DNA of 12,726 nucleotides from a virus. Lineage: Duplodnaviria; Heunggongvirae; Uroviricota; Caudoviricetes. Positions 1,596-12,726 of the stretch are shown here, in pieces (the stretch's first letter is position 1; each line of letters opens with the position of its first letter). Both the position numbers and the translations under genes were made by a program. Below the pieces are notes generated by a model that had not been told where the DNA came from, searched no databases, and saw nothing but the letters and a program-made list of their open reading frames with translations. The stretch is taken from IMG/VR virus record IMGVR_UViG_3300014846_000084; one strand, written 5' to 3'.

Positions 1596-1784
1596 GTGTT
1601 AAGCACAGATCGCTTTATACGTGAAAAAGAATGTCAGCAACTTACAGGCCTGAGCCGCTCATGTCGGTACCGCCTGGAAAAAGCCGGACAATTCCCATCA
1701 CGGCGTAAGCTGGGCGGTCGTTCCGTTGGCTGGTCTTTATCCGAAGTTCTGGCATGGAAGGACAGCTGCGAGGCAGTTCACTAA
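1596..1784 (+). CDS. alpA: AlpA-family (Vis/excisionase-like) HTH transcriptional regulator, 62 aa, GTG start
   Basis: Translation LTGLSRSCRYRLEKAGQFP...GWSLSEVLAWK matches the AlpA/MerR-like winged HTH pattern. Strong SD (AAAGGGGGA) 5 to 8 nt upstream of the GTG at 1596. Confidence 0.85.
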   Translation: MLSTDRFIREKECQQLTGLSRSCRYRLEKAGQFPSRRKLGGRSVGWSLSEVLAWKDSCEAVH

Positions 1785-1836
1785 TCAGGCTGGCGGCACA
1801 CAGCCGCCACCCATCCACTAATACAGAGATCTAACC

Positions 1837-3039
1837 ATGAATACTGGATATTCTCCCGAACAAGGGCGGGGCTTCGTTCGTCCTGAAAAACAGAATCTGC
1901 AAAATTTTGCCGAAATTATTCCGGTTATTTCCGGCCTTACTGGCGGGAGTGAAACCAATATTGTTAACGCCAGAGCGTTGCAGATGTTTGATGATAAAAA
2001 GGGAGTAAATTTAACTTACACCCCTGACGGCAATCAGAATATGAGCATTATCTCTGAGTCAGGTTTCTACAAACTAATAAAAACAAAAAGCGCCCCGTTG
2101 CCGGAGCGCCTTTGTGAACAATTAACCTACTGCGCAAAAAATGAATCTGAGCAGTGGGATTATATCAACCATGTGGAGAAGCGCCACAATTGCCGAATAA
2201 CGGGCAAAACAAAGGCCACCCGCTACGGTGGCCCCTCGACACAAGCTACACGTTATCCCCAACGCATGAGCATTGCCAACAATGCCACATTTGCGGCTGG
2301 TGGGCAATGCAATCAGTCTGGTTCAGTTCGTTGCCATACCTGCAATGAGCGCTTTTCCCTGTACTCTTTAAGGAATTGCTCAAGGGCAAAAGCACATGGC
2401 GCGAATCTTTCTGATTCATGCTCTATCTTTCTGCGCCGTCTTTTCCGTGCCGGTGATAATGTTTTGGTCAATTCTTTATCGGTCATTGTGTTGTCCTGCA
2501 TAGCAATGCGCCGTAATACCTTACACCACGGCGCTGATGGTGATTACTCTGGTTCTTTGGTCTTGCGGCGCTGGAGTTCTTCACGTGCGACAGTGACGAG
2601 CTGCCCGATCTCCTCGGCGGCTTTGATTCCGAGTTTTTCCACCTGCGCCAGTGCATCGAGCGAAGAAACTAGGGGATTTTCTCCACTTCCTTCTGCCTGG
2701 CGCCGGGCGATCTCACCGCGTACAGCCGTAACTATAAAATTCGCTTTAGTTTCCCCTGGCTGTAGGGATGCCTCAATGCCACTCACTACTTCATGTGGAA
2801 ATCTGGCATTCAGTTGCTGTGACTTATTGTTAACAGAACTCCTGGACATGTTTGCACCTCCCATTAATAACGGGATGCAGTGTAATACAAAAGTGAATAC
2901 CAAAAAAGACTTGAAATGGTATTCACCTAAATGTAATGTGAATACCACAAGTGCTGATACATGCAATTCAGCAATTGAAACGACGAAGCCCCGCACTGTT
3001 GGAGCAGTAACGGGGCTTCTAACCAACAACGTAAACTAG
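1837..3039 (+). CDS. Hypothetical ORF with a Bro-N/KilA-N-like segment in the first ~110 aa. The 3' boundary is uncertain: the open frame runs 400 codons, but the distal two thirds look like non-coding antisense of the minus-strand regulator gene. Possible pseudogene or mis-extended ORF.
   Basis: N-terminal translation contains KGVNLTYTPDGNQNMSIISESGFYKLIKTKS, which resembles the conserved Bro-N core. From about residue 150 the composition turns S/C/R-rich and overlaps a well-supported gene on the opposite strand. Weak SD before the ATG at 1837. Confidence 0.3.
   Translation: MNTGYSPEQGRGFVRPEKQNLQNFAEIIPVISGLTGGSETNIVNARALQMFDDKKGVNLTYTPDGNQNMSIISESGFYKLIKTKSAPLPERLCEQLTYCAKNESEQWDYINHVEKRHNCRITGKTKATRYGGPSTQATRYPQRMSIANNATFAAGGQCNQSGSVRCHTCNERFSLYSLRNCSRAKAHGANLSDSCSIFLRRLFRAGDNVLVNSLSVIVLSCIAMRRNTLHHGADGDYSGSLVLRRWSSSRATVTSCPISSAALIPSFSTCASASSEETRGFSPLPSAWRRAISPRTAVTIKFALVSPGCRDASMPLTTSCGNLAFSCCDLLLTELLDMFAPPINNGMQCNTKVNTKKDLKWYSPKCNVNTTSADTCNSAIETTKPRTVGAVTGLLTNNVN
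2313..2486 (-). CDS. Possible small basic protein (57 aa, MTDKELTKTLSPARKRRRRK...), downstream of the RHH gene on the minus strand
   Basis: ORF in the track (2313..2501) trimmed to the second ATG, which has an AGGA about 8 nt upstream. Composition is protein-like but there is no recognisable family. Overlaps the open + frame of the preceding feature. Confidence 0.2.
   Translation of the reverse strand: MTDKELTKTLSPARKRRRRKIEHESERFAPCAFALEQFLKEYREKRSLQVWQRTEPD
2544..2849 (-). CDS. Ribbon-helix-helix (Arc/MetJ-like) DNA-binding regulator, about 101 aa; candidate island repressor
   Basis: Track ORF 2544..3029 trimmed to the internal ATG at 2849, which has a strong SD (GGGAGGTG) 5 nt upstream. 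N-terminal segment LNARFPHEVVSGIEASLQPGETKANFIVTAVRGEI fits an RHH beta-strand/helix pattern. Transcribed divergently from the downstream operon. Confidence 0.7.
   Translation of the reverse strand: MSRSSVNNKSQQLNARFPHEVVSGIEASLQPGETKANFIVTAVRGEIARRQAEGSGENPLVSSLDALAQVEKLGIKAAEEIGQLVTVAREELQRRKTKEPE
2893..2947. promoter_or_regulatory. Operator-like triple repeat GTGAATACCA (direct 2893-2902, inverted 2918-2927, direct 2938-2947) in the divergent intergenic region between the RHH gene and the 3048 operon
   Basis: Three exact copies of a 10-mer in alternating orientation, within about 55 bp, lying between two divergent start codons (2849 minus, 3048 plus). Confidence 0.5.
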
Positions 3040-3047
3040 GAGCCGTT

Positions 3048-3248
3048 ATGGTTGCCGTAAATCATATACCACACCTTGTACACACACAAACGGCCTTTGT
3101 GTGGCGTTTTCTGGCACTGAGTGCCGGAGAATCTCAAATCATCCACGTAACCGCCTGGACGGAACGCGAAGCGCGTAGCCGTTGCCCGTCAGGTTGTGTT
3201 GCTGTATTTGCCGCTCGTATTCGTCAGGGGAAAACCTATGCACAATAA
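3048..3248 (+). CDS. Hypothetical small protein (66 aa), first gene of a coupled operon leading to the primase
   Basis: AGGAG SD at 3038-3042, 5 nt before the ATG. Stop overlaps the start of the next ORF. Confidence 0.5.
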   Translation: MVAVNHIPHLVHTQTAFVWRFLALSAGESQIIHVTAWTEREARSRCPSGCVAVFAARIRQGKTYAQ

Positions 3249-3477
3249 AACCACACCGGACGCAGCAGCCGCCGCGCTCACTACGCTGATGCACGCGCTT
3301 ATTGATATTTCTGTTATTGCTGACAGGGCGCATAAGCACGCCACCAGTGAAACAGAATATGCCGGGGCTTTCGTTCCTCATTCGCTGGCGGTTATGCAAC
3401 TTAGTGCGGATATGGCGCTGAATGAGGCCAAAGCCATCCTGATTGCTGATTGTGAAAATGGGGGGGGTTATGCGTGA
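3238..3477 (+). CDS. Hypothetical small protein (79 aa, MHNKTTPDAAAAALTT...)
   Basis: Track ORF 3196..3477 trimmed to the ATG at 3238, which overlaps the upstream stop and has AGGGGA upstream. Alanine/helix-rich, protein-like composition. Confidence 0.5.
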   Translation: MHNKTTPDAAAAALTTLMHALIDISVIADRAHKHATSETEYAGAFVPHSLAVMQLSADMALNEAKAILIADCENGGGYA

Positions 3478-3934: not shown

Positions 3935-4234
3935 ATGAAACTTAAATATTCTGGCTTAACTGCCAGTGGCAACACTCACCCTAAATTTACGCGCGGTGAT
4001 ATTTACCGCGACCAGTACGGCGGCACGGTAATGATTAAGGGCGTGGAGGAACGTCGCGTAACTTACCGCCGTGAAGGCTACGAATATGATTGCGTGATGC
4101 CTGTTTATCAGTTCGACCGTGATTTTTCTCTTGTGCAGGCCGTACCGCGTAACGTGCCCACCAGCAGGGAGAAAGCACGCGCCAATATTCAGAAGATGAA
4201 AACCATGATTAACGGATTCAGGGGTAAAAAATGA
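3935..4234 (+). CDS. Hypothetical protein (99 aa), translationally coupled to the primase gene (ATGA overlap)
   Basis: Track ORF with GGAGA SD upstream. Its stop overlaps the primase ATG at 4231. Confidence 0.6.
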   Translation: MKLKYSGLTASGNTHPKFTRGDIYRDQYGGTVMIKGVEERRVTYRREGYEYDCVMPVYQFDRDFSLVQAVPRNVPTSREKARANIQKMKTMINGFRGKK

Positions 4235-5985
4235 AACTGGCACCGAACGTAAAACAGCAGTCACGCGGCATAAAACACAAAGAAACAGAAGTCATTATTT
4301 TTGCGGGTAGTGATGCCTGGTCACACGCAAAACAATGGCAGGAACATGACGCGCGTATGGCCGGAGATAATGAGCCTCCTGTGTGGCTTGGGGAGCAGCA
4401 GTTATCCGAACTGGATAAGCTGCAAATTGTGCCGGAAGGCAGAAAATGCGTACGAATATTCAGGGCCGGACATCTTGCGCCAGTAATGATAAAGGCGATT
4501 GGTCAGAAGCTGGCGGCGGCTGGCGTACAGGATGCAAATTTTTATCCTGAGGGTATGCACGGCCAGGAGGTGCAGAACTGGCGCGAATATCTGGCCCGTG
4601 AGCGACAGAATCTTTCTGATGGTCTGGTCATTGAGCTTCCGGTAAAGCAAAAGGCGCAACTTTCTCAGATGGCGGACAGTGAGCGCGCGCAGCTGCTTTC
4701 CGGGCGCTTTGATGGCGTTTGCGTGCATCCTGAAAGTGAAATCGTCCACGTCTGGCGCGGCGGGGGATGGTGTCCGGTCAGCACAATGGAACTGAGCCGC
4801 GAAATGGTGGCGATCTATTCAGAGCACAGGGCCACTTTCAGCAAGCGCGTAATCAATAACGCCGTGGAAGCGTTAAAAGTTATTGCCGAACCAATGGGCG
4901 AGCCGTCCGGTGATTTACTGCCGTTCGCCAATGGTGCGCTTGACCTGAAAACGGGGGAATTTTACCCGCACACGCCGGAGAACTGGATCACCACGCACAA
5001 CGGCATTGAGTACACGCCACCAGCACCAGGGGAGAACATCCGCGATAACGCGCCAAACTTTCATAAATGGCTTGAGCACGCAGCCGGAAAAGACCCGCGC
5101 AAGATGATGCGTATATGTGCCGCGCTGTACATGATTATGGCGAACCGGTACGACTGGCAGATGTTTATTGAGGCCACCGGAGATGGCGGGAGCGGTAAAA
5201 GTACATTCACGCACATAGCCAGCCTTCTGGCAGGGAAACAGAACACGGTAAGCGCTGAAATGACATCGCTTGATGATGCTGGTGGACGTGCGCAGGTTGT
5301 CGGGAGTCGTCTTATCGTCCTGGCTGACCAGCCGAAATATACAGGCGAAGGAACGGGCATCAAGAAAATCACGGGCGGTGACCCTGTGGAAATTAACCCG
5401 AAATACGAAAAGCGTTTCACGGCTGTAATCAGAGCGGTGGTGCTGGCGACCAACAATAACCCGATGATATTCACCGAACGGGCCGGAGGTGTGGCACGTC
5501 GTCGCGTGATTTTCCGTTTCGACAATATCGTCAGTGAGGCCGAAAAAGACAGGGAGCTACCGGAAAAGATTGCGGCTGAAATCCCTGTCATTATCCGCCG
5601 ATTGCTGGCGAACTTTACCGACCCTGAGAAGGCACGGGCTTTACTACTGGAACAGCGTGACGGTGATGAAGCTCTGGCAATAAAGCAACAGACGGATCCG
5701 GTTATTGAGTTTTGCCAGTTCCTGAATTTTCTGGAGGAAGCACGCGGCCTGATGATGGGCGGCGGTGGCGATTCAGTGAAGTACACGACCAGAAACAGCC
5801 TTTACCGCGTCTATCTGGCGTTTATGGCGTACGCAGGCAGGAGCAAACCGCTAAACGTAAATGACTTTGGCAAGGCTATGAAGCCAGCCGCGAAAGTTTA
5901 CGGACATGAATATATTACGCGGAAAGTTAAGGGAGTAACGCAGACTAACGCAATAACAACAGACGATTGCGACGCGTTTTTATAA
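4231..5985 (+). CDS. Phage/plasmid primase-helicase, P4 alpha-like (D5_N plus P-loop NTPase C-terminal region), 584 aa; probable replication initiator of the island
   Basis: Walker A reads EATGDGGSGKST and a Walker-B-like RLIVLADQ follows. Overall size and layout match P4-family primase C-terminal domain proteins. The iteron array starts directly after the stop. Confidence 0.88.
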   Translation: MKLAPNVKQQSRGIKHKETEVIIFAGSDAWSHAKQWQEHDARMAGDNEPPVWLGEQQLSELDKLQIVPEGRKCVRIFRAGHLAPVMIKAIGQKLAAAGVQDANFYPEGMHGQEVQNWREYLARERQNLSDGLVIELPVKQKAQLSQMADSERAQLLSGRFDGVCVHPESEIVHVWRGGGWCPVSTMELSREMVAIYSEHRATFSKRVINNAVEALKVIAEPMGEPSGDLLPFANGALDLKTGEFYPHTPENWITTHNGIEYTPPAPGENIRDNAPNFHKWLEHAAGKDPRKMMRICAALYMIMANRYDWQMFIEATGDGGSGKSTFTHIASLLAGKQNTVSAEMTSLDDAGGRAQVVGSRLIVLADQPKYTGEGTGIKKITGGDPVEINPKYEKRFTAVIRAVVLATNNNPMIFTERAGGVARRRVIFRFDNIVSEAEKDRELPEKIAAEIPVIIRRLLANFTDPEKARALLLEQRDGDEALAIKQQTDPVIEFCQFLNFLEEARGLMMGGGGDSVKYTTRNSLYRVYLAFMAYAGRSKPLNVNDFGKAMKPAAKVYGHEYITRKVKGVTQTNAITTDDCDAFL

Positions 5986-5997
5986 TTTGTTGCAATG

Positions 5998-6225
5998 GCT
6001 GTCTACCCTGTCTACCTGAGTAAAGAAAAATACATTTAATTCAGTACATTAACTTAGGTAGACAGCCTTTTTTCACTGTCTACCTACTATCTACCCTCTC
6101 TACCTGATTTTACCTGAATCAGACAGGGAGGTAGATACGGGGTAGATAGTGGATAAAAGCACTCTACCCTACTGAAAGCCGCGCCATTACTGGCATGGTG
6201 GCCAGTAAGGTAGATAAGGTAGACA
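5998..6225. repeat. Iteron array, candidate origin of replication: about 12 copies of GGTAGA(C/T)A / T(G)TCTACC in both orientations flanking an AT-rich spacer
   Basis: CTGTCTACC at 5999-6007, 6008-6016 and 6076-6084; GGTAGACAG at 6057-6065; TCTACC at 6090 and 6099; GGTAGATA at 6130, 6141 and 6209; GGTAGACA at 6218. AT-rich stretch at 6018-6056. Confidence 0.6.
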
Positions 6226-6853: not shown

Positions 6854-7015
6854 ATGGCTATCACAGAACGCGAGGCAAGCATCATTAAGGCCATTGGCGA
6901 GGAAACAAGAGACACCATAGCGCCATTGATGGAAAAGATCGCAGAGCTTGAGACACGAATAAACAAGCTGAGTAATGAAGTTGAAGGCCTGATCTCGTTA
7001 CTCGGTGAGCAATGA
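6854..7015 (+). CDS. Small predicted coiled-coil protein (53 aa, MAITEREASIIKAIGEETRDTIAPLMEKIAELETRINKLSNEVEGLISLLGEQ); absent from the ORF track, which appears to omit ORFs under 60 aa
   Basis: Translated by hand. ATG lies 4 nt after the upstream stop, with a GAGG about 9 nt upstream. Heptad-like charged/hydrophobic pattern. Confidence 0.4.
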   Translation: MAITEREASIIKAIGEETRDTIAPLMEKIAELETRINKLSNEVEGLISLLGEQ

Positions 7016-7143
7016 CATGGGGGGGAGTGTTCCGGCCGGAAAGTCGATCTCCCTGGACACCGCCCCCCGTCTCATTCGTAGAAAATTTTGCTTTTCAAAA
7101 AAGTTACACGAAAAGTTACACCCCCTCAAAACGAGGTTTTTGC

Positions 7144-7632
7144 ATGGCATTAACGACCAAAAAAAAGCGGTTTGCTGATGCGTTATCAAGGGGCGCAAAT
7201 CCCACGGAAGCCGCTATACATGCGGGATACAGCGAAAAGACCGCAAGGGTTAAAGGCTGGCAGCTATCCAACGATCCTGAGGTGAAAAAGTATCTTAAGG
7301 CTGTAACTCCTGATGTAACTTTTCAGGTTACAAAACCGAAAAAAGTTACAAAGAAAGTTACCGAAAAAGTTACACCGGAACGGGCATCAATTAACACCAT
7401 TGAGATGATGGATAACGGCCTACCCGACCCCATCAAAGCAATGGGCAGGATACTGATTGACAACATGGACACAGATCCAAAACTGGCTTTAGATGCCGCG
7501 TTTAAGCTGGCCCAGTTCACCCACCGCAAGATCGGCAGCATTGGGAAAAAAGAGGTTAAAAAACTCAATGCCGCTAGTGTCTCCTCAAATCGGTTCCCCA
7601 TCCCTAAGCCACCAACAGGCTTAAAACACTGA
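7144..7632 (+). CDS. terS: Terminase small subunit (TerS, Terminase_2-like), 162 aa
   Basis: Track ORF 7012..7632 trimmed to the internal ATG at 7144, which has a GAGG SD. N-terminus FADALSRGANPTEAAIHAGYSEKTARVKGWQLSNDPEV matches the conserved TerS HTH signature (AGYS..TA). The upstream 44 codons of the track ORF are GC-rich, structured, non-coding-looking sequence. Confidence 0.8.
   Translation: MALTTKKKRFADALSRGANPTEAAIHAGYSEKTARVKGWQLSNDPEVKKYLKAVTPDVTFQVTKPKKVTKKVTEKVTPERASINTIEMMDNGLPDPIKAMGRILIDNMDTDPKLALDAAFKLAQFTHRKIGSIGKKEVKKLNAASVSSNRFPIPKPPTGLKH
7303..7375. repeat. Cluster of six GTTAC/GTAAC pentamer-containing repeats spaced about 12 bp apart inside terS (encoding the repetitive KVT linker); candidate pac/TerS recognition site
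   Basis: GTAAC at 7303 and 7315; GTTAC at 7328, 7345, 7357 and 7369. Two further AAAAGTTACAC copies lie just upstream of the terS start (GTTACAC at 7103-7109 and 7115-7121). Confidence 0.45.
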
Positions 7633-7643
7633 GGTAGCGAACT

Positions 7644-7805
7644 ATGAGCGAATACATCACAGACCCTATTGATGTACTCACGGAAATCATGAACGACAAG
7701 CAGCAGTCGACCGAAATACGGTTACAGGCCGCCGCTATTCTGATGCCATATTTTCACGAAACACTAAACCCGTGCTTCCAAGAGGAGGAAGAAGATGATC
7801 TGTAA
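7644..7805 (+). CDS. Small acidic protein (53 aa, MSEYITDPIDVLTEIMNDKQQSTEIRLQAAAILMPYFHETLNPCFQEEEEDDL); absent from the ORF track
   Basis: Translated by hand. ATG at 7644 lies 11 nt after the terS stop, with a GAGG about 9 nt upstream. Its 3' end overlaps the start of the capsid-like gene by 11 nt. Confidence 0.4.
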   Translation: MSEYITDPIDVLTEIMNDKQQSTEIRLQAAAILMPYFHETLNPCFQEEEEDDL

Positions 7806-8718
7806 AAACATGAAAGGCGTGTCAGCAGTTCGCGCCGCCAGCGTGCTGGCATCGTGTAAATTTAGCCATGCTGACGCTATAGAGATGACGAAAAGAAATG
7901 ATCCGGCAGTATCGTTATTTCTTGAAAAATCCGTAGTAGCAGGAATGAACACGGATAACATGCCGTCGCTGGTGGCAGAGCCGATAGTAAGAGAGCTTGG
8001 CGAGTATATTTTTTCGCAGTCTGTACCAGGCAAGCTAATCAGCAGCGCGCTAAATCTTCCGTTTGGCGCAAAATTGCAGTCAATATCAGGCAAGGGTAGT
8101 AAATGGCTTAAAGAGGCCGAAGAAATCCCAGTCAAAGAGGGAGAAGTAAACGAAAGCGCGCTAAAACTGTGCAAACTCGGCGCTATTGTGATGCTGAATA
8201 ACGAGCTAATCAAATTTAGCACCCCTGGTACCAATTCAGCGATCAGAGACTTGATCACATCGGAATCGGTGAAAGAAATAGATAAAAAATTTCTTTCCAG
8301 TGACCAGGAGGTGGCTGGCGTATCCCCTGAGGGCGTGCTTAATGGTGCTGATGAGGCCGAAAACTTCATAGAGCTTTTCAAAAAGCACATAGCGAACGGT
8401 AACACGCTTGCCACGTCGTCGCTAATCTTGCCCGTAGAAAACGCCTTACAGCTTACTGATGCTGAGTTCTGGCAGATAGAGCTTTTGAGAATACCGGTAA
8501 TTGTGAGCGAACAGGCGGATCTCATGATGCTGATAGACGCTAAAAAGCTGATTATTAACGTTGAAGCCACGGTTATAACCCCAACTGATGAGGCGGTAAT
8601 AAAAACCGAATCAGGGACGGTTAGCCTTTTCCAGAATGACGCTACAGCGTTCATGGCAATCACCTATTGCGGATGGCAAAAACTCGATAAGGCCGTCACC
8701 GTTCTGGCGAAAAGCTGA
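7795..8718 (+). CDS. HK97-fold major capsid protein homolog (307 aa), putative; possibly a capsid-redirecting MCP paralog given the absence of other head genes
   Basis: AGGAGG SD 7 nt upstream of the ATG. The overall pattern, especially the C-terminal region (LRIPVIVSEQADLMMLIDAKKLIINVEATVITPT...SLFQNDATAFMAITYCGWQ), resembles HK97-type major capsid proteins. Assignment is by eye only. Confidence 0.55.
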   Translation: MICKNMKGVSAVRAASVLASCKFSHADAIEMTKRNDPAVSLFLEKSVVAGMNTDNMPSLVAEPIVRELGEYIFSQSVPGKLISSALNLPFGAKLQSISGKGSKWLKEAEEIPVKEGEVNESALKLCKLGAIVMLNNELIKFSTPGTNSAIRDLITSESVKEIDKKFLSSDQEVAGVSPEGVLNGADEAENFIELFKKHIANGNTLATSSLILPVENALQLTDAEFWQIELLRIPVIVSEQADLMMLIDAKKLIINVEATVITPTDEAVIKTESGTVSLFQNDATAFMAITYCGWQKLDKAVTVLAKS

Positions 8719-8732
8719 TTTTTCCGGCATCA

Positions 8733-8762
8733 ATCCCGATATGGTGATCCCCATATCGGGAT
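8733..8762. other. Perfect 12-bp inverted repeat hairpin (ATCCCGATATGG-tgatcc-CCATATCGGGAT) 15 nt after the capsid-like gene stop; possible weak terminator, RNA element or protein-binding site
   Basis: Arms at 8733-8744 and 8751-8762 are exact reverse complements. Followed by AT-rich sequence but not a clean T-run. Confidence 0.4.
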
Positions 8763-8805
8763 AATTACGAAATTTTCGCAGTTTAATAGCTGACCAGGTG
8801 GAGAA

Positions 8806-9087
8806 ATGACAGAAGCCGAAATACTGGGATTAATCCGCCGCGTTGCCGGAATCAGCAAGCAGGCCGACGAACAGGCCACGCAGCCGGACAGCGTGACCGC
8901 CGAAAATTATGTGCGTGTTGTTGCTGAGGTGATGCGCCGTGATGGTATCCAGCTTAATGATGTGGATATGCGCAACATACGGATCCGCGTTCTTGAAATG
9001 CTGGCCTACAATCGCCGCGTTGAACTGTATCGGGAGAAAGAAAAAATTACGTACCACTGGAAGAAGCCGGAGCGGTTACGGCGTTAA
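8806..9087 (+). CDS. Hypothetical protein (93 aa), last gene of the island
   Basis: Track ORF. AGGTGGAG SD at 8796-8803. Balanced, protein-like composition. Confidence 0.55.
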   Translation: MTEAEILGLIRRVAGISKQADEQATQPDSVTAENYVRVVAEVMRRDGIQLNDVDMRNIRIRVLEMLAYNRRVELYREKEKITYHWKKPERLRR

Positions 9088-9093
9088 CGAGTA

Positions 9094-9138
9094 GTGACAT
9101 ACCGTGACGGAGAGTGACAACCAGTGACACAACGTGAC
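9094..9138. repeat. Tandem array of five phased 10-bp repeats (GTGAC every 10 bp; consensus nnnGTGACAn) at the island terminus
   Basis: GTGAC at 9094, 9104, 9114, 9124 and 9134. Contains the octamer GACACAAC (9126-9133), which also occurs at 1275-1282 and 1536-1543. Confidence 0.6.
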
Positions 9139-9390
9139 AAAAAGACGGTATTTAAACAGGGGGAGTATTTAATACCCCTCCCACCAGCCTGATTAACATT
9201 TAACCGGAAAAAAAATCCGGTACCATGATGGCAGACGCTAGGGCAATCATTGCTGAAATTGCACACTTTTTAAGCAAATCATTTTAGTTATACGTTTGGT
9301 TATACGATTTAAAAGTTGAATCAAGCATATTTATTAAAATCATGTAGTTACACGCTAAATTAAACTACTCTCGTGCCAAAAATCCCAAGA

Positions 9391-9419
9391 AAAAACCAAC
9401 CCTTACGGTTGGTTTTTTT
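9391..9419. terminator. Bidirectional intrinsic terminator (AACCAACC-cttac-GGTTGGTT flanked by an A-run and a T-run); serves the convergent autotransporter gene and probably the island's rightward transcripts
   Basis: Perfect 8-bp stem (9394-9401 / 9407-9414) with a 5-nt loop, a T7 run on the + strand and an A-run upstream that gives a T-run on the minus strand. Lies about 60 nt past the autotransporter stop. Confidence 0.7.
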
Positions 9420-9480
9420 ATATCTGCAATTAATTCGATAAACAGACCGTGACACATCACAGCCTGTTTATTTTCTGTTA

Positions 9481-12072
9481 TCAGAACGTCCAGACCACAC
9501 CCGCCTGAGTATTCCACGGCGATTCTACCCCTGCGCCATTGCCATAGCTGACTGACAAATGACCGCTTAACGTCGGGGTAAACGATGACCTTATACCAGC
9601 CTGATAAACGCCACTGGTTCCAGCCACATCATTATTAAATTTGCCATCGTCATTAACTTTCACCTGGTTAGAATCGGCGTATTCCTGACGCACGGCCGCT
9701 TTCAGCCAGGGTTCCAGCGTCGTACCGTTTTGCAGGTCCATGTGATAGCTTACCGCCGTTCCCGCTTCAGCGCGTAATATCCGGGTATTTCCCACATCCG
9801 CGCGCATGCCGTTTGATAACGTGTAGTCCTGACCATCTGTGGTAAAGCCGGTAAAGGCCAGATAGGGTCTAACACTCCACAATCCGTCAACCCAACGGAA
9901 CCCGCTCTCAACATGAGCACCCGCGCCGTTACTATTGTAATCGCCAAACGCTGTTGCCCCATTACTCATCTTGCCATGGATGGTGTTGGCAAAACGGTCA
10001 ACTTTCACCACCCCATCAACATAGGCACCGTTCTGATGCTCCCAACCGGCATAAGCCCCCAGGGTATAGCTATCGATATTACCTTTGCCGCCGCGATCAA
10101 AACCAATATCAGAATGAGAGTAACCAAAGATCAAGCCGCGAATTGTACTGCTTTCTTCACGGGAGAAACGGCTATCGATACCGAGCGTCAGGCCCGTCAA
10201 TGTTTGCTCAAAACCAGCTCCCGCATCAGTGGTCACGTTGTTGCGGGTGTTAATTGCCGAACTCCACATCGCCGTATCGTAACTAACGCCTTTTACGCTA
10301 CCAAGACGCTCACGCACGGTGTCCAGTTCTGCATCAAATACCAGCGGTTGTGCGGCCGCCATATTCAGCACATCAGTGGTTGAAGGGGTAATTTGCGCGC
10401 GATTCTCTGCCAGACTCCAGCTATGGTTGCCATTATCCAGCAAGGTATATTCATACGTACCGATATCAACAACGCCTCCGGCATTGCCCAACGTAAATGC
10501 AGCATCACCGCCGCCCGTTGTTACCAGTGTAAGGCTATCTCCTGCTGCCGGGCTGGCACCGGTGTCCGTCACGAATATTTTGAAATCACCTGTTGCCTGA
10601 CCGGTGACGTTGAGCTGATCGCTCTGATGATTAGCCATATCGGTACGCATATAAAAATTGCCGTTTCCCGACAGGGTATTGGTGGTCAACGTAATGAAAT
10701 TTTCCGCACTTGCCGTCACTGATGAACGAGTCACTGGCTCATCCATCATAATCACATTTGCGTCAGACATCGCAAGGTTGGCTAAGTTGAGGAGGGTGTT
10801 TTGGTTCGTCGTAGTGATATCGGCAATGATGGTCCATACGCTATTTTCGAGCGAAACGTCCGCTTTGCTGGTATCCACGGCACCATTCGTTCTAAAAGAA
10901 GCGCCCTCAGAAACCACTACCTTACCCACCAACATTGCGGGTGCATAATTTATTTGCGGCTTCATGACCTCAAGAATGCCATCATTCCCTCTGACTGAAA
11001 CGTTAACCATTGTGCCAGCCCAGACGTTAGCGCGGCCATTGTTGATAACCATATTTTCAGAGATGGCTTTTGAGGAATACGTGATACTTCCATTCTGATA
11101 TGATCGACCGAGATCATATACCGCATTTGCCTGCACTTTCGTACCAGTATCCTTTCCCAGCGATTGCATAGTGGCATGCTTATCAAGGATAGTATCAATG
11201 GCCTGCGTGTCCTCCATAACAATGAGCCCGGAACCATCATCCAGTTCATAATTTTTTGACACACCATCTTTTATACTAAATTGGCCTTTACTGTTTGGAC
11301 CACTCACTTCCAGCGCATTCGTTGAGACAATTAATTTTCCGCCTGCTTTTTTATCAACGCCAGTTACAGTCCCGCCATCCATAACCTCCAGTAAGCCGCC
11401 ACTATCTACAGTGGTATTATAAGCGAAGTCATTTTCTTCAACTCGCAAACTTCCGCCGTTTTCCAACAACATATTATTAGCAATACCATTCTTGATATCG
11501 AACTGACCGAGACGGTTTGTTCCGAATACCTCCATGGCCCGCGTGGTTGTTTTAATAGCACCGCCTGCTTTCTGATCTACCGCAAATGCAAATCCCCCCT
11601 CTTTAACCTCCAGTAGTCCTCCCTTTTCGATAGCGACAAAGACGGCCCCCCCATCTTTTTCAACGATTAAGCGCCCGCCTTTAATCGTGGTATCATTCGC
11701 TGCGCCATAAACCTGTAGCACACCATTATTGAGCGTAGTCTGGTTTGCCGCGCCACCCATTTGAACAATTTGATAACCGTCATTTAATACTGAGTATTCT
11801 GCGGCGCCATTCATTTCAATGTACTGATACCCTCCGTTAATTTCAGTATTATTACTTACACCAAATTCTTTTATATGCTGTTCTCCGCCAGGATTGATTT
11901 TCGTATTATTGGCGGTCCCATAAACCAGCTGGATATCTTTTTCCAGGACAACACCATCAACTGTCTCACCATACTCAACAGTTGATGCCAATGCTATGGG
12001 TGAATATAACGCTGTAGCCACCAGAACAGATATTGCGGAACGACAAAGAGAAACAGAACCAGATTGATGCAT
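9481..12072 (-). CDS. AIDA-I-type (type Va) autotransporter adhesin, 863 aa, with signal peptide, repeat-rich passenger and C-terminal beta-barrel translocator
   Basis: N-terminal signal-peptide-like segment (LCRSAISVLVATALYSPIALAST). Passenger region has recurring glycine-rich repeats (e.g. NTKINPGGEQ, NTEINGGYQY, IVEKDGGAVF, LEVKEGGFAF). C-terminal about 280 aa has alternating aromatic/hydrophobic beta-strand pattern and ends ...AGVVWTF, typical of autotransporter beta-domains. Confidence 0.88.
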   Translation of the reverse strand: MHQSGSVSLCRSAISVLVATALYSPIALASTVEYGETVDGVVLEKDIQLVYGTANNTKINPGGEQHIKEFGVSNNTEINGGYQYIEMNGAAEYSVLNDGYQIVQMGGAANQTTLNNGVLQVYGAANDTTIKGGRLIVEKDGGAVFVAIEKGGLLEVKEGGFAFAVDQKAGGAIKTTTRAMEVFGTNRLGQFDIKNGIANNMLLENGGSLRVEENDFAYNTTVDSGGLLEVMDGGTVTGVDKKAGGKLIVSTNALEVSGPNSKGQFSIKDGVSKNYELDDGSGLIVMEDTQAIDTILDKHATMQSLGKDTGTKVQANAVYDLGRSYQNGSITYSSKAISENMVINNGRANVWAGTMVNVSVRGNDGILEVMKPQINYAPAMLVGKVVVSEGASFRTNGAVDTSKADVSLENSVWTIIADITTTNQNTLLNLANLAMSDANVIMMDEPVTRSSVTASAENFITLTTNTLSGNGNFYMRTDMANHQSDQLNVTGQATGDFKIFVTDTGASPAAGDSLTLVTTGGGDAAFTLGNAGGVVDIGTYEYTLLDNGNHSWSLAENRAQITPSTTDVLNMAAAQPLVFDAELDTVRERLGSVKGVSYDTAMWSSAINTRNNVTTDAGAGFEQTLTGLTLGIDSRFSREESSTIRGLIFGYSHSDIGFDRGGKGNIDSYTLGAYAGWEHQNGAYVDGVVKVDRFANTIHGKMSNGATAFGDYNSNGAGAHVESGFRWVDGLWSVRPYLAFTGFTTDGQDYTLSNGMRADVGNTRILRAEAGTAVSYHMDLQNGTTLEPWLKAAVRQEYADSNQVKVNDDGKFNNDVAGTSGVYQAGIRSSFTPTLSGHLSVSYGNGAGVESPWNTQAGVVWTF

Positions 12073-12269
12073 TGAGCTTTCATCCTATGAAATTAATTGC
12101 TGTTAAAAGCATTGGGTACAGAAAATACCCATAGCTCCATACCCGGAGTCAGTTTTTAAAAACTGTTTAAAGAAATGCACAAGTATTGTGATTGATTTTT
12201 TAGTTGTTTTTCTTGATGAGAAGCTGATGCAAAATTCCGTCTTTATAATGAAAATGATGCCAAAGCGAA

Positions 12270-12726
12270 TAGACTGGCCCCCTGAATCTCCAGACAACCA
12301 ATATCACTTAAATAAGTGATAGTCTTAATACTAGTTTTTAGACTAGTCATTGGAGAACAGATGATTGATGTCTTAGGGCCGGAGAAACGCAGACGGCGTA
12401 CCACACAGGAAAAGATCGCAATTGTTCAGCAGAGCTTTGAACCGGGGATGACGGTCTCCCTCGTTGCCCGGCAACATGGTGTAGCAGCCAGCCAGTTATT
12501 TCTCTGGCGTAAGCAATACCAGGAAGGAAGTCTTACTGCTGTCGCCGCCGGAGAACAGGTTGTTCCTGCCTCTGAACTTGCTGCCGCCATGAAGCAGATT
12601 AAAGAACTCCAGCGCCTGCTCGGCAAGAAAACGATGGAAAATGAACTCCTCAAAGAAGCCGTTGAATATGGACGGGCAAAAAAGTGGATAAAGCACGCGC
12701 CCTTATTGCCCGGGGATGGGGAGTAA
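12270..12726 (+). mobile_element. IS2 (IS3 family) insertion sequence, left end only; IRL begins about 12270 and the element continues beyond the window
   Basis: Sequence from about 12270 (TAGACTGGCCCCCTGAATCTCCAGACAACC...) matches my recollection of the IS2 left inverted repeat, and the downstream ORF matches IS2 orfA. Recognised from memory, not from a search. Confidence 0.8.
12361..12726 (+). CDS. insC: IS2 transposase OrfA (InsC-like HTH protein), 121 aa
   Basis: Track ORF 12316..12726 trimmed to the ATG at 12361, which has a GGAGAACAG SD-like sequence upstream. Translation [40 protein letters not shown]... is the IS2/IS3-family OrfA as I recall it. Confidence 0.88.

What the first reader, a model, noticed from the sequence alone, without database searches (positions are those of the whole stretch)
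1837..3039. Open-ended ORF with a Bro-N-like start and an antisense-like tail: possible pseudogene or mis-extended frame
The first 110 codons look like a real protein with a Bro-N/KilA-N-like core (ISESGFYKLI). The frame then stays open for another 290 codons through sequence that encodes a well-supported regulator on the opposite strand. Either the native stop was lost, or the true gene is short and the long frame is accidental.
Basis: inference. Interest (0 to 1): 0.35.

Follow-up and report, generated by a model that had tools for sequence, protein, structure and literature searches.

The report
Stop-free read-through frame in phage satellite
The 400-codon frame is not an accident. It is this E. 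coli phage satellite's copy of a reading frame that relatives keep free of stop codons from the alpA gene to the icd/kil gene, apparently so that ribosomes can ride a read-through transcript, as phage P4's eta gene does.

Summary
The ORF at 1837-3039 (+) is real, with a TAG stop at 3037-3039. Its first 81 codons are a chimera of two gene remnants. One is the 5' leader of an AntA-type gene. The other is an internal piece of a Bro-N gene. Neither domain is intact. The frame then crosses a minus-strand terminator, runs antisense through a 62-aa gene and a YlcI/YnfO-type gene, and crosses their promoter region. It stops 8 nt before the ATG of an Icd-like gene, a homologue of P4 Kil.

I sampled 131 distinct relatives by the 62-aa minus-strand gene, so the sample is not biased towards the plus frame.
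- In 96, the same frame is open from about the alpA stop to the icd stop, in frame with icd.
- In 27, including this window, it stops 8-32 nt before the icd ATG.
- In 8 it is broken; four of the nine broken loci differ from an intact relative by one 1-nt indel.

Nine of 12 dissimilar promoter-region alleles have no stop in this frame (each P about 0.01-0.04). Substitutions there show no codon periodicity.

So openness is selected, not the amino-acid sequence. The best model is the P4 vis-eta-kil arrangement, in which translation protects a read-through transcript from termination. That mechanism is inferred here, not shown.

The parts
1596..1784 (+). alpA (homologue of P4 vis), the gene just upstream of the long frame
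   Evidence: Pfam Phage_AlpA, E 3e-18. Annotated as a helix-turn-helix regulator in relatives.
1788..1812 (+). Stable hairpin between the alpA stop and the ORF start, with no U-tract
   Evidence: Fold energy -17.3 kcal/mol, z -3.8. Conserved in L001 and L015-type loci.
1837..3039 (+). The long stop-free frame (eta-like read-through frame), 400 codons, TAG at 3037-3039
   Evidence: Open in 123 of 131 distinct relatives. Null probability 0 of 20000.
1837..1982 (+). Remnant of the 5' end of an AntA/AntB-type antirepressor gene (about 48 codons; AntA domain lost)
   Evidence: Window 1855-1982 is 90.6% identical to the start of a 282-aa ORF in L143 and 84% to one in L161. That ORF hits PF08346 AntA at E 1.9e-21, residues 43-133.
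1975..2079 (+). Internal remnant of a Bro-N gene (about codons 47-81), fused in frame on both sides
   Evidence: 90.7% identical to L002:3001-3108, inside an intact 192-aa BRO-N CDS. Pfam Bro-N is below threshold.
2086..2113 (-). Intrinsic terminator of the minus-strand two-gene cassette, lying inside the plus frame
   Evidence: 12-bp stem plus T-run. Fold energy -20.5 kcal/mol, z -4.9.
2313..2501 (-). 62-aa basic protein gene (p62), read antisense by the long frame with wobble positions aligned
   Evidence: Annotated as a hypothetical protein in relatives. Homologues at 44-100% identity in 157 loci. Phase identical in 103 of 103 loci.
2544..2849 (-). YlcI/YnfO-family gene, probably ribbon-helix-helix (RHH; my reading of the sequence) and the likely repressor; read antisense by the long frame
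   Evidence: NF041551, 60.7 bits. PGAP annotation. Third-position excess of 42:43:122.
2893..2947 (.). Three copies of GTGAATACCA in alternating orientation (operator-like) in the divergent promoter region
2985..3019 (+). Conserved two-tier hairpin followed by CTAACCA, in the icd leader and read through by the long frame
   Evidence: Hairpin predicted in 24 of 25 distinct motif-bearing leader sequences, with differing stem sequences; the motif is absent in 4 loci.
3037..3047 (+). Junction: the long-frame stop TAG overlaps the Shine-Dalgarno (SD) sequence AGGAG (3038-3042), and the icd ATG follows 8 nt after the stop
   Evidence: Sequence. Same 8-32-nt 'coupled' layout in 27 distinct relatives.
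3048..3248 (+). Icd-like gene, homologue of P4 Kil; first gene of the replication operon
   Evidence: NF033153 phage_ICD_like, 64.6 bits; P4 Kil scores 76.1 bits on the same model.

Best explanation
ORF 1837-3039 is this island's version of a conserved eta-like read-through frame of P4-like and PICI-type satellites (PICI = phage-inducible chromosomal island).

Shown:
- The window has the P4 gene order: integrase, alpA (vis), long frame, icd/kil, primase.
- In relatives the frame runs stop-free from about the alpA stop to the stop of icd, or to within 8-32 nt of its ATG.
- The frame passes antisense through the cassette of the YlcI-type RHH (ribbon-helix-helix) gene and the 62-aa gene, and through the divergent promoter region.
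- In this window two in-frame deletions have fused debris of an AntA-type gene and a Bro-N gene onto its 5' end.
- Selection acts on the absence of stops, not on the encoded amino acids.

Inferred, by analogy with P4 eta:
- When transcription comes from upstream (the alpA promoter, after induction), ribosomes translate this frame continuously.
- That keeps the roughly 1.2-kb transcript, much of it antisense, covered. Rho and other termination then cannot stop it before icd and the replication genes.
- In this window the ribosomes terminate on the icd Shine-Dalgarno sequence and can re-initiate at the ATG 8 nt later.

The polypeptide itself is probably functionless.
For: Architecture:
- int, alpA, the long frame, icd-like, DUF4222 and a D5-type primase are all present.
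- P4 has vis at 8764-9030 followed by a 214-codon ORF that ends in Kil.
- P4 Kil and window 3048-3248 hit the same NCBIfam model.
- Mageeney et al. 2023 (PMC10111431), summarising Forti et al. [quoted passage not shown]

Conservation of openness:
- Of 131 distinct loci, 96 are nested, 27 coupled and 8 broken. The other two plus frames are mostly open for only 63-129 nt at the same place.
- Four of the nine broken loci differ from an intact relative by one 1-nt indel and no mismatches.
- Nine of 12 dissimilar promoter-region alleles have no stop in this frame. Each has P 0.01-0.04, and the summed log10 P is -15.7.
- Over about 750 codons of cluster representatives, the long frame has 5 stops against 72 and 55 in the other two plus frames.

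No constraint on the amino-acid sequence:
- Variable columns by codon position are 123:118:117 in the promoter region and 67:73:81 in the 5' segment.
- Positive controls show a third-position excess: icd 48:45:84 and the RHH gene 42:43:122.

Translation start and continuity:
- Compact relatives have the alpA stop, then an SD (AGGGGAG), then an ATG 7-10 nt later.
- Fuller islands have an unbroken chain of overlapping ORFs: alpA, AntA, Bro-N, long frame.

Link to P4 and wider spread:
- Some relatives carry the P4-type RNAs (Rfam isrK and C4) and Phage_ASH sequence on the long-frame strand, downstream of the RHH cassette.
- Openness holds in 104 of 111 loci that lack those RNAs.
- The arrangement is also nested in Proteus, Morganella, Citrobacter and one Pectobacterium locus.
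Against: - No transcript, ribosome or Rho data exist for this element. The anti-termination role is transferred from P4, which has a different immunity system (CI RNA) that is absent here.
- The window's ATG has only a weak SD-like GAGA and lies 52 nt after the alpA stop, behind a hairpin. Initiation may therefore be poor.
- C-over-G (rut-like) bias along the plus-strand RNA is modest and not diagnostic.
- Openness across the two antisense genes is only mildly unlikely given their protein sequences: P 0.78 and 0.14.
- The loci recombine and are related, so the summed P overstates independence.
- In this window the frame is not fused to icd.
Confidence: 0.6

Rival explanations
1. Accidental long ORF. 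The real gene is a short Bro-N pseudogene, and the 3' 290 codons are open by chance.
For: - PGAP leaves 1837-2312 unannotated in relatives that are 99.8% identical.
- There is no Pfam or NCBIfam hit for the tail.
- The antisense frame with aligned wobble positions is fairly permissive: P(open) is 0.78 over p62 and 0.14 over ylcI.
Against: - Null probability for the whole frame is 0 of 20000.
- The frame is open in 123 of 131 distinct relatives, whereas the other plus frames close within about 63-129 nt.
- Nine of 12 dissimilar promoter-region alleles are stop-free.
- Broken copies are rare, and four of nine are single 1-nt indels relative to an intact copy.
Confidence: 0.04
2. A genuine 400-aa protein whose sequence matters, with dual coding against the YlcI-type RHH gene and the 62-aa gene.
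For: - Hundreds of database proteins of 385-540 aa cover 100% of the ORF.
- The wobble-to-wobble phase is the one most compatible with dual coding.
Against: - Codon-position variability is flat where no minus-strand gene overlaps, while control genes show a third-position excess.
- Segments of the 'protein' are swapped for dissimilar alleles.
- 21% of relatives end the frame before icd.
- No family hit exists beyond the sub-threshold Bro-N fragment.
Confidence: 0.07
3. The frame exists to make an N-terminally extended Icd/Kil isoform (an Eta-like protein), for example a masked or differently regulated form of the division inhibitor. What matters is the fusion, not ribosome coverage.
For: - 96 of 131 relatives are in frame with icd.
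- P4 eta and kil are nested in the same way.
Against: - In the window and 26 other distinct sequences, the frame stops 8-32 nt before the icd ATG yet stays open right up to that point. That fits a need for ribosome coverage, not a need for a fusion protein.
- The N-terminal extension has no conserved sequence.
Confidence: 0.1
4. The translated read-through transcript mainly acts as an antisense or convergent-transcription switch that shuts off the RHH-p62 repressor cassette on induction. Translation only stabilises that RNA.
For: - The frame is antisense to the whole cassette and its terminator.
- Operator-like repeats and divergent promoters lie within it.
Against: - It does not explain why the frame must stay open through the roughly 200-nt promoter region up to icd.
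- It does not explain why the frame is usually in phase with icd.
- It is compatible with the main explanation and may act alongside it.
Confidence: 0.15

Closest known systems
Phage P4 vis-eta-kil nested genes (Forti et al. 1999, J Bacteriol 181:5225, as summarised in PMC10111431)
   Same: - The order is alpA/vis, then a long ORF, then Kil/Icd-like, then the primase operon.
- The Kil homology is tested.
- The long ORF starts next to the alpA homologue.
- The frame runs across the early promoter and immunity region.
- Most relatives are nested in frame with kil.
- Some relatives carry isrK and C4 RNA hits on the long-frame strand.
   Different: - The frame here is 400 codons (385-540 in relatives) against 197-214 in P4.
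- It runs antisense through a two-gene protein cassette (YlcI-type RHH gene plus the 62-aa gene) and its terminator, not across a CI RNA gene.
- The window has no C4 or isrK RNA and no Phage_ASH region.
- In the window the frame is not nested. It stops 8 nt before the icd ATG, in another frame.
Phage P1/P7 immI operon (c4 RNA, icd, ant): translation of icd is needed to prevent Rho-dependent termination upstream of ant (own knowledge: Biere et al. 1992; Riedel et al. 1993)
   Same: - An Icd-family gene sits at the head of an operon.
- Transcription of that operon depends on ribosomes translating the leader region.
   Different: - P1 uses an antisense RNA to block icd translation, and no such RNA is found here.
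- P1 has no kilobase-long upstream frame and no antisense protein cassette.
'Bro zone' of Gram-negative PICIs, made of domain-swapping Bro-network genes (Mageeney et al. 2023, PMC10111431)
   Same: - It sits between the integration genes (int, alpA) and the replication genes.
- It contains AntA and Bro-N modules in fuller relatives.
   Different: - In the window both Bro-network genes are reduced to 48- and 35-codon fragments with no intact domain.
- The bulk of the 'gene' is antisense translation of other genes, not a Bro-network domain.

Membership tests
P4-type eta/kil read-through frame | The long ORF starts immediately downstream of the vis/alpA homologue | tested here: met
   The window ATG at 1837 lies 52 nt after the alpA stop. 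Compact relatives have an SD plus an ATG 7-10 nt after the alpA stop.
P4-type eta/kil read-through frame | The frame leads into a Kil/Icd-like gene at the head of the primase operon | tested here: met
   Window 3048-3248 hits NF033153 at 64.6 bits and P4 Kil hits it at 76.1 bits. The primase lies at 4231-5985.
P4-type eta/kil read-through frame | eta and kil are nested: same reading frame and a shared stop | tested here: not met
   The window frame stops at 3037-3039, 8 nt before the ATG at 3048, and is in a different phase. The feature is met in 96 of 131 relatives.
P4-type eta/kil read-through frame | The frame contains the CI RNA and seqA immunity elements (Rfam C4 and isrK) and a Phage_ASH region | tested here: not met
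   No C4 or isrK hit in the window at E up to 1, and none by blastn. No PF10554 hit. All are present in P4 and in some relatives.
P4-type eta/kil read-through frame | Translation of the frame prevents Rho-dependent termination of the late-promoter transcript | not testable with these tools
   There is only indirect support: selection for openness without amino-acid constraint.
Bro-N domain protein (PF02498) | A complete Bro-N domain above the Pfam gathering score | tested here: not met
   The score is 14.4-16.9 bits against a 25.6-bit cut-off, covering only profile positions 34-85 of 96. Intact relatives score 65.9 bits.
AntA/AntB antirepressor (PF08346) | The AntA domain is present | tested here: not met
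   Only the roughly 48-codon leader upstream of the domain is retained.
Conventional protein-coding gene | Excess of third-codon-position variation (purifying selection on the amino-acid sequence) | tested here: not met
   Variation is flat at 123:118:117 and 67:73:81 in segments not overlapped by minus-strand genes. Controls are 48:45:84 and 42:43:122.

The most novel reading that the evidence does not exclude
A kilobase-long reading frame is kept free of stop codons in hundreds of enterobacterial satellites purely so that ribosomes can escort a read-through transcript. That transcript runs antisense across the element's own repressor cassette into the icd/replication operon. The frame is selected for being translated, and its product is irrelevant. 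If so, the many 385-540-aa 'Icd-like proteins' in the databases are by-products of this device.
Probability: 0.5. Interest if true: 0.7.

Novelty: new variant of a known kind. Interest (0 to 1): 0.55.

Why it matters
1. Annotation. The search returned 1466 database proteins at E up to 0.001, most of the 120 listed being 385-540 aa. Most of those that carry a name are called 'host cell division inhibitor Icd-like protein'. Only the last 66 or so residues of these are Icd. The rest is antisense translation of a regulator cassette plus gene debris.

2. Biology. This extends the single-phage P4 eta observation to a large family with a different immunity system. It gives a clean comparative signature of selection for translatability rather than for a product.

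3. Testability. The wobble positions of the two strands coincide. Stops can therefore be introduced in the plus frame without changing the minus-strand proteins. That makes it straightforward to test translation-dependent protection from Rho during satellite induction.

Tried and rejected
- Rfam scan of the window for a P4-type CI RNA (C4, isrK): nothing found; only spurious sub-threshold hits.
- tblastn of the Icd-like protein against the phage collection: one weak hit, and P4 itself was missed. I therefore fetched P4 by accession and compared it through NCBIfam.
- Forti et al. 1999 (PMC94026) is not held in the library. I relied on its summary in PMC10111431.
- Two literature searches found no description of this antisense-spanning frame.
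- Gap-length analysis (multiples of 3): uninformative. The alignments of the mosaic segments are messy and mix nested and coupled classes.
- C-over-G (rut-like) profile along the plus-strand RNA: modest and not diagnostic.
- The idea that the protein sequences of the antisense genes force the frame open: rejected as a sufficient cause. P is 0.78 and 0.14 for the window's genes, but the intergenic alleles are also stop-free.
- The idea that the minus-strand RHH frame is likewise conserved open upstream of its ATG: true for only 21 of 60 distinct alleles, so it is not a general feature.
- Structure prediction was not run. With no amino-acid-level constraint, a model would not discriminate between the explanations.

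Full report
**1. What is in the window**

The window is an E. coli integrative satellite of the P4/PICI kind. PICI stands for phage-inducible chromosomal island. Its genes are:
- integrase, 1-1230;
- alpA, 1596-1784 (Pfam Phage_AlpA, E 3e-18);
- the target ORF, 1837-3039;
- an Icd-like gene, 3048-3248 (NF033153, 64.6 bits);
- a DUF4222 gene and a D5-type primase, 4231-5985;
- a small-terminase-like gene and a capsid-like gene;
- an AIDA-type autotransporter and the start of an IS3-type transposase.

Some part of 1600-3300 is found in 1695 of 5426 complete E. coli genomes.

**2. The observation**

The ORF is real: 400 codons from an ATG, ending at TAG 3037-3039. Several features lie under it.
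- A strong intrinsic terminator on the minus strand, 2086-2113.
- A 62-aa gene, p62, at 2313-2501 (-).
- A YlcI/YnfO-family gene at 2544-2849 (-), probably ribbon-helix-helix (RHH; my reading of the sequence). It scores 60.7 bits on NF041551, and PGAP annotates it in relatives that are 99.8% identical.
- The divergent promoter region, 2850-3047. It holds three GTGAATACCA repeats and a stable hairpin.

**3. The 5' end is gene debris**

Blastn against fuller relatives splits the 5' end into three pieces.
- Window 1855-1982 matches the start of a 274-282-aa ORF that follows alpA in L143 and L161 (90.6% and 84%). That ORF is an AntA/AntB antirepressor (PF08346, E 1.9e-21, residues 43-133). The window therefore keeps only its leader.
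- Window 1975-2079 matches the middle of an intact 192-aa BRO-N gene, L002:3001-3108 (90.7%). Pfam Bro-N stays below its cut-off, at 16.9 against 25.6 bits.
- Window 2078-2318 matches L002:3551-3791, which lies downstream of that gene's stop.

So two deletions removed both gene bodies and their stops. From the coordinates, both junctions are in frame. No Bro-N or AntA protein can be made.

**4. The tail is not accidental**

A protein search with the whole ORF returned 1466 proteins at E up to 0.001. Most of the 120 listed are 385-540 aa long, many cover 100% of the query at 56-99% identity, and most are named 'Icd-like'. In them the frame runs on, in frame, into the Icd-like gene.

That list is biased towards open frames. 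I therefore sampled loci through a neighbouring gene instead, the minus-strand p62 gene. This gave 80 IMG/VR loci and 77 metagenome loci, with p62 identity of 43-100%. The 131 distinct sequences with both ends present fall into three classes.
- Nested, 96: one plus frame is open from about the alpA stop to the icd stop, in the icd frame.
- Coupled, 27, including this window: the frame stops 8-32 nt before the icd ATG.
- Broken, 8: the frame stops 99-273 nt before the icd ATG.

The other two plus frames are mostly open for only 63-129 nt at the same place. Four of the nine broken loci differ from an intact relative by a single 1-nt indel and no mismatches. These are recent events or sequencing errors. 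The other five differ by 8-26 mismatches as well as indels.

The arrangement is also found outside E. coli among loci fetched through the YlcI-like protein. It is nested in Proteus, Morganella, Citrobacter and one Pectobacterium locus. In the other Pectobacterium and Dickeya loci the frame ends about 50 nt before the icd match.

**5. Is openness a by-product of the antisense genes?**

Only partly. The long frame always pairs wobble position with wobble position against p62 and the RHH gene (103 of 103 loci). Given the protein sequences, synonymous recoding keeps the plus frame open with the following probabilities:
- 0.78 for p62;
- 0.13-0.81 for the 37 distinct RHH proteins;
- 0.14 for the window's ylcI.

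The decisive segment is the stretch of about 200 nt between the RHH start and the icd start, where no gene is annotated on either strand. It falls into 12 clusters that share fewer than 30% of their 8-mers.
- Nine clusters have no stop in the long frame. Each has P 0.01-0.04 under dinucleotide shuffling, and the summed log10 P is -15.7.
- Over about 750 codons of cluster representatives, the long frame has 5 stops. The other two plus frames have 72 and 55.

For the window itself, none of 20000 randomisations kept 1837-3036 open.

**6. Is it a conventional protein?**

No. Where no minus-strand gene overlaps, variable alignment columns are flat across the codon positions of the long frame. Positive controls show the expected third-position excess.

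| Segment | Variable columns at codon positions 1:2:3 |
|---|---|
| Promoter region (no overlapping gene) | 123:118:117 |
| 5' segment (no overlapping gene) | 67:73:81 |
| icd (control) | 48:45:84 |
| RHH gene (control) | 42:43:122 |

Whole stretches of the conceptual protein are replaced by dissimilar sequence between relatives. No family model matches the tail. The frame is therefore kept open, but what it encodes is not conserved.

**7. What it most likely does**

P4 has the same layout. Its vis gene (ORF88, 8764-9030) is followed by a 214-codon ORF (8168-8812) whose last 65 codons are Kil. P4 Kil and the window's Icd-like protein hit the same NCBIfam model.

Mageeney et al. 2023 (PMC10111431) summarise Forti et al. 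1999 as follows.
- eta is translated only from the upstream late promoter.
- It is translationally coupled to the alpA homologue.
- Its translation prevents termination, so the transcript reaches the downstream genes.

Three further observations fit active translation here.
- Compact relatives have the alpA stop, then an SD (AGGGGAG), then an ATG 7-10 nt later.
- Fuller islands have an unbroken chain of overlapping ORFs from alpA through AntA and Bro-N into the long frame.
- In the coupled class the frame stays open right up to the icd ribosome-binding site. In the window the TAG overlaps AGGAG, and the ATG follows 8 nt later. This argues for ribosome coverage rather than for a fusion protein.

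Some relatives carry isrK- and C4-type RNA hits (Rfam) and a Phage_ASH stretch on the same strand as the long frame, downstream of the RHH cassette. This ties the two architectures together. Openness is equally conserved in the 111 loci that lack those RNAs, where 104 are nested or coupled.

The anti-termination role itself, and any added role as an antisense switch against the repressor cassette, are inferences.

**8. Differences from P4, and caveats**

- The window has no CI-type RNA.
- Its frame crosses a protein-repressor cassette and that cassette's terminator.
- It is twice as long as eta.
- It is not nested with icd.
- Its start has only a weak SD, behind a hairpin.
- The loci recombine and are related, so the combined P-value is an upper bound on significance.
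- No expression data exist.

**9. Verdict**

The feature is a new variant of the known P4 eta/kil device. It has a clear comparative signature and an easy experimental test.

Noticed in passing
window 2893-2947: Three copies of GTGAATACCA in alternating orientation lie between the YlcI-type RHH gene and icd. They look like operators for the RHH protein over the divergent promoters.
   Followed up: partly
window 2985-3019, and the same place in 145 of 149 relatives: A two-tier hairpin followed by CTAACCA lies about 30-40 nt upstream of the icd ATG. It folds in 24 of 25 distinct motif-bearing leader sequences. The stem sequences differ between alleles (GAAGCCCCG/CGGGGCTTC against AACGCCCCG/CGGGGCGT). 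The invariant CTAACCA also looks like the point where modules recombine. The window's out-of-phase junction with its icd allele lies there. Function is unknown.
   Followed up: partly
window 2544-3029 (-): The YlcI frame is also open for 59 codons upstream of its ATG, across the promoter region. The same holds in 21 of 60 distinct alleles, while the rest close within 9-48 nt. This is more than chance predicts and is only partly explained by the plus-frame openness. It remains unexplained.
   Followed up: partly
window 2113-2312: About 200 nt lie between the p62 stop and the minus-strand terminator. The stretch is 88-95% conserved in some relatives but is cut to about 60 nt in compact islands. 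It could be a 3' UTR or a small RNA. There is no Rfam hit.
   Followed up: no
window 6064-6161: A long, nearly perfect inverted repeat with repeated CTACC/GGTAG motifs lies just downstream of the primase gene. It shows up as spurious mir-3927 hits on both strands. It may be a replication origin.
   Followed up: no
L001 (NZ_CP059907) 4177-4662, and database proteins P0001-P0120: RefSeq annotation of this locus is inconsistent. Some genomes call a 161-aa 'Icd-like' CDS that starts inside ylcI. Many-540-aa versions. Others leave the 5' part unannotated.
   Followed up: partly
L166, L036 and L084 (strand opposite to the stored orientation): Relatives carry P4-type isrK (seqA-like) and C4 (CI-like) RNA hits downstream of the RHH cassette, and L084 has two C4 copies. 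Islands can therefore combine protein-based and RNA-based immunity modules.
   Followed up: partly
window 7012-12726: The cargo end of the island holds a small-terminase-like gene, a capsid-family gene, an 863-aa AIDA/pertactin-type autotransporter on the minus strand, and the start of an IS3-type transposase. No sid, delta or psu genes were seen, so the island looks closer to a PICI than to P4.
   Followed up: no
L144 5742-5809: A relative has an Rfam int-alpA RNA hit (RF02996, 45.5 bits). No such hit appears in the window at E up to 1.
   Followed up: no
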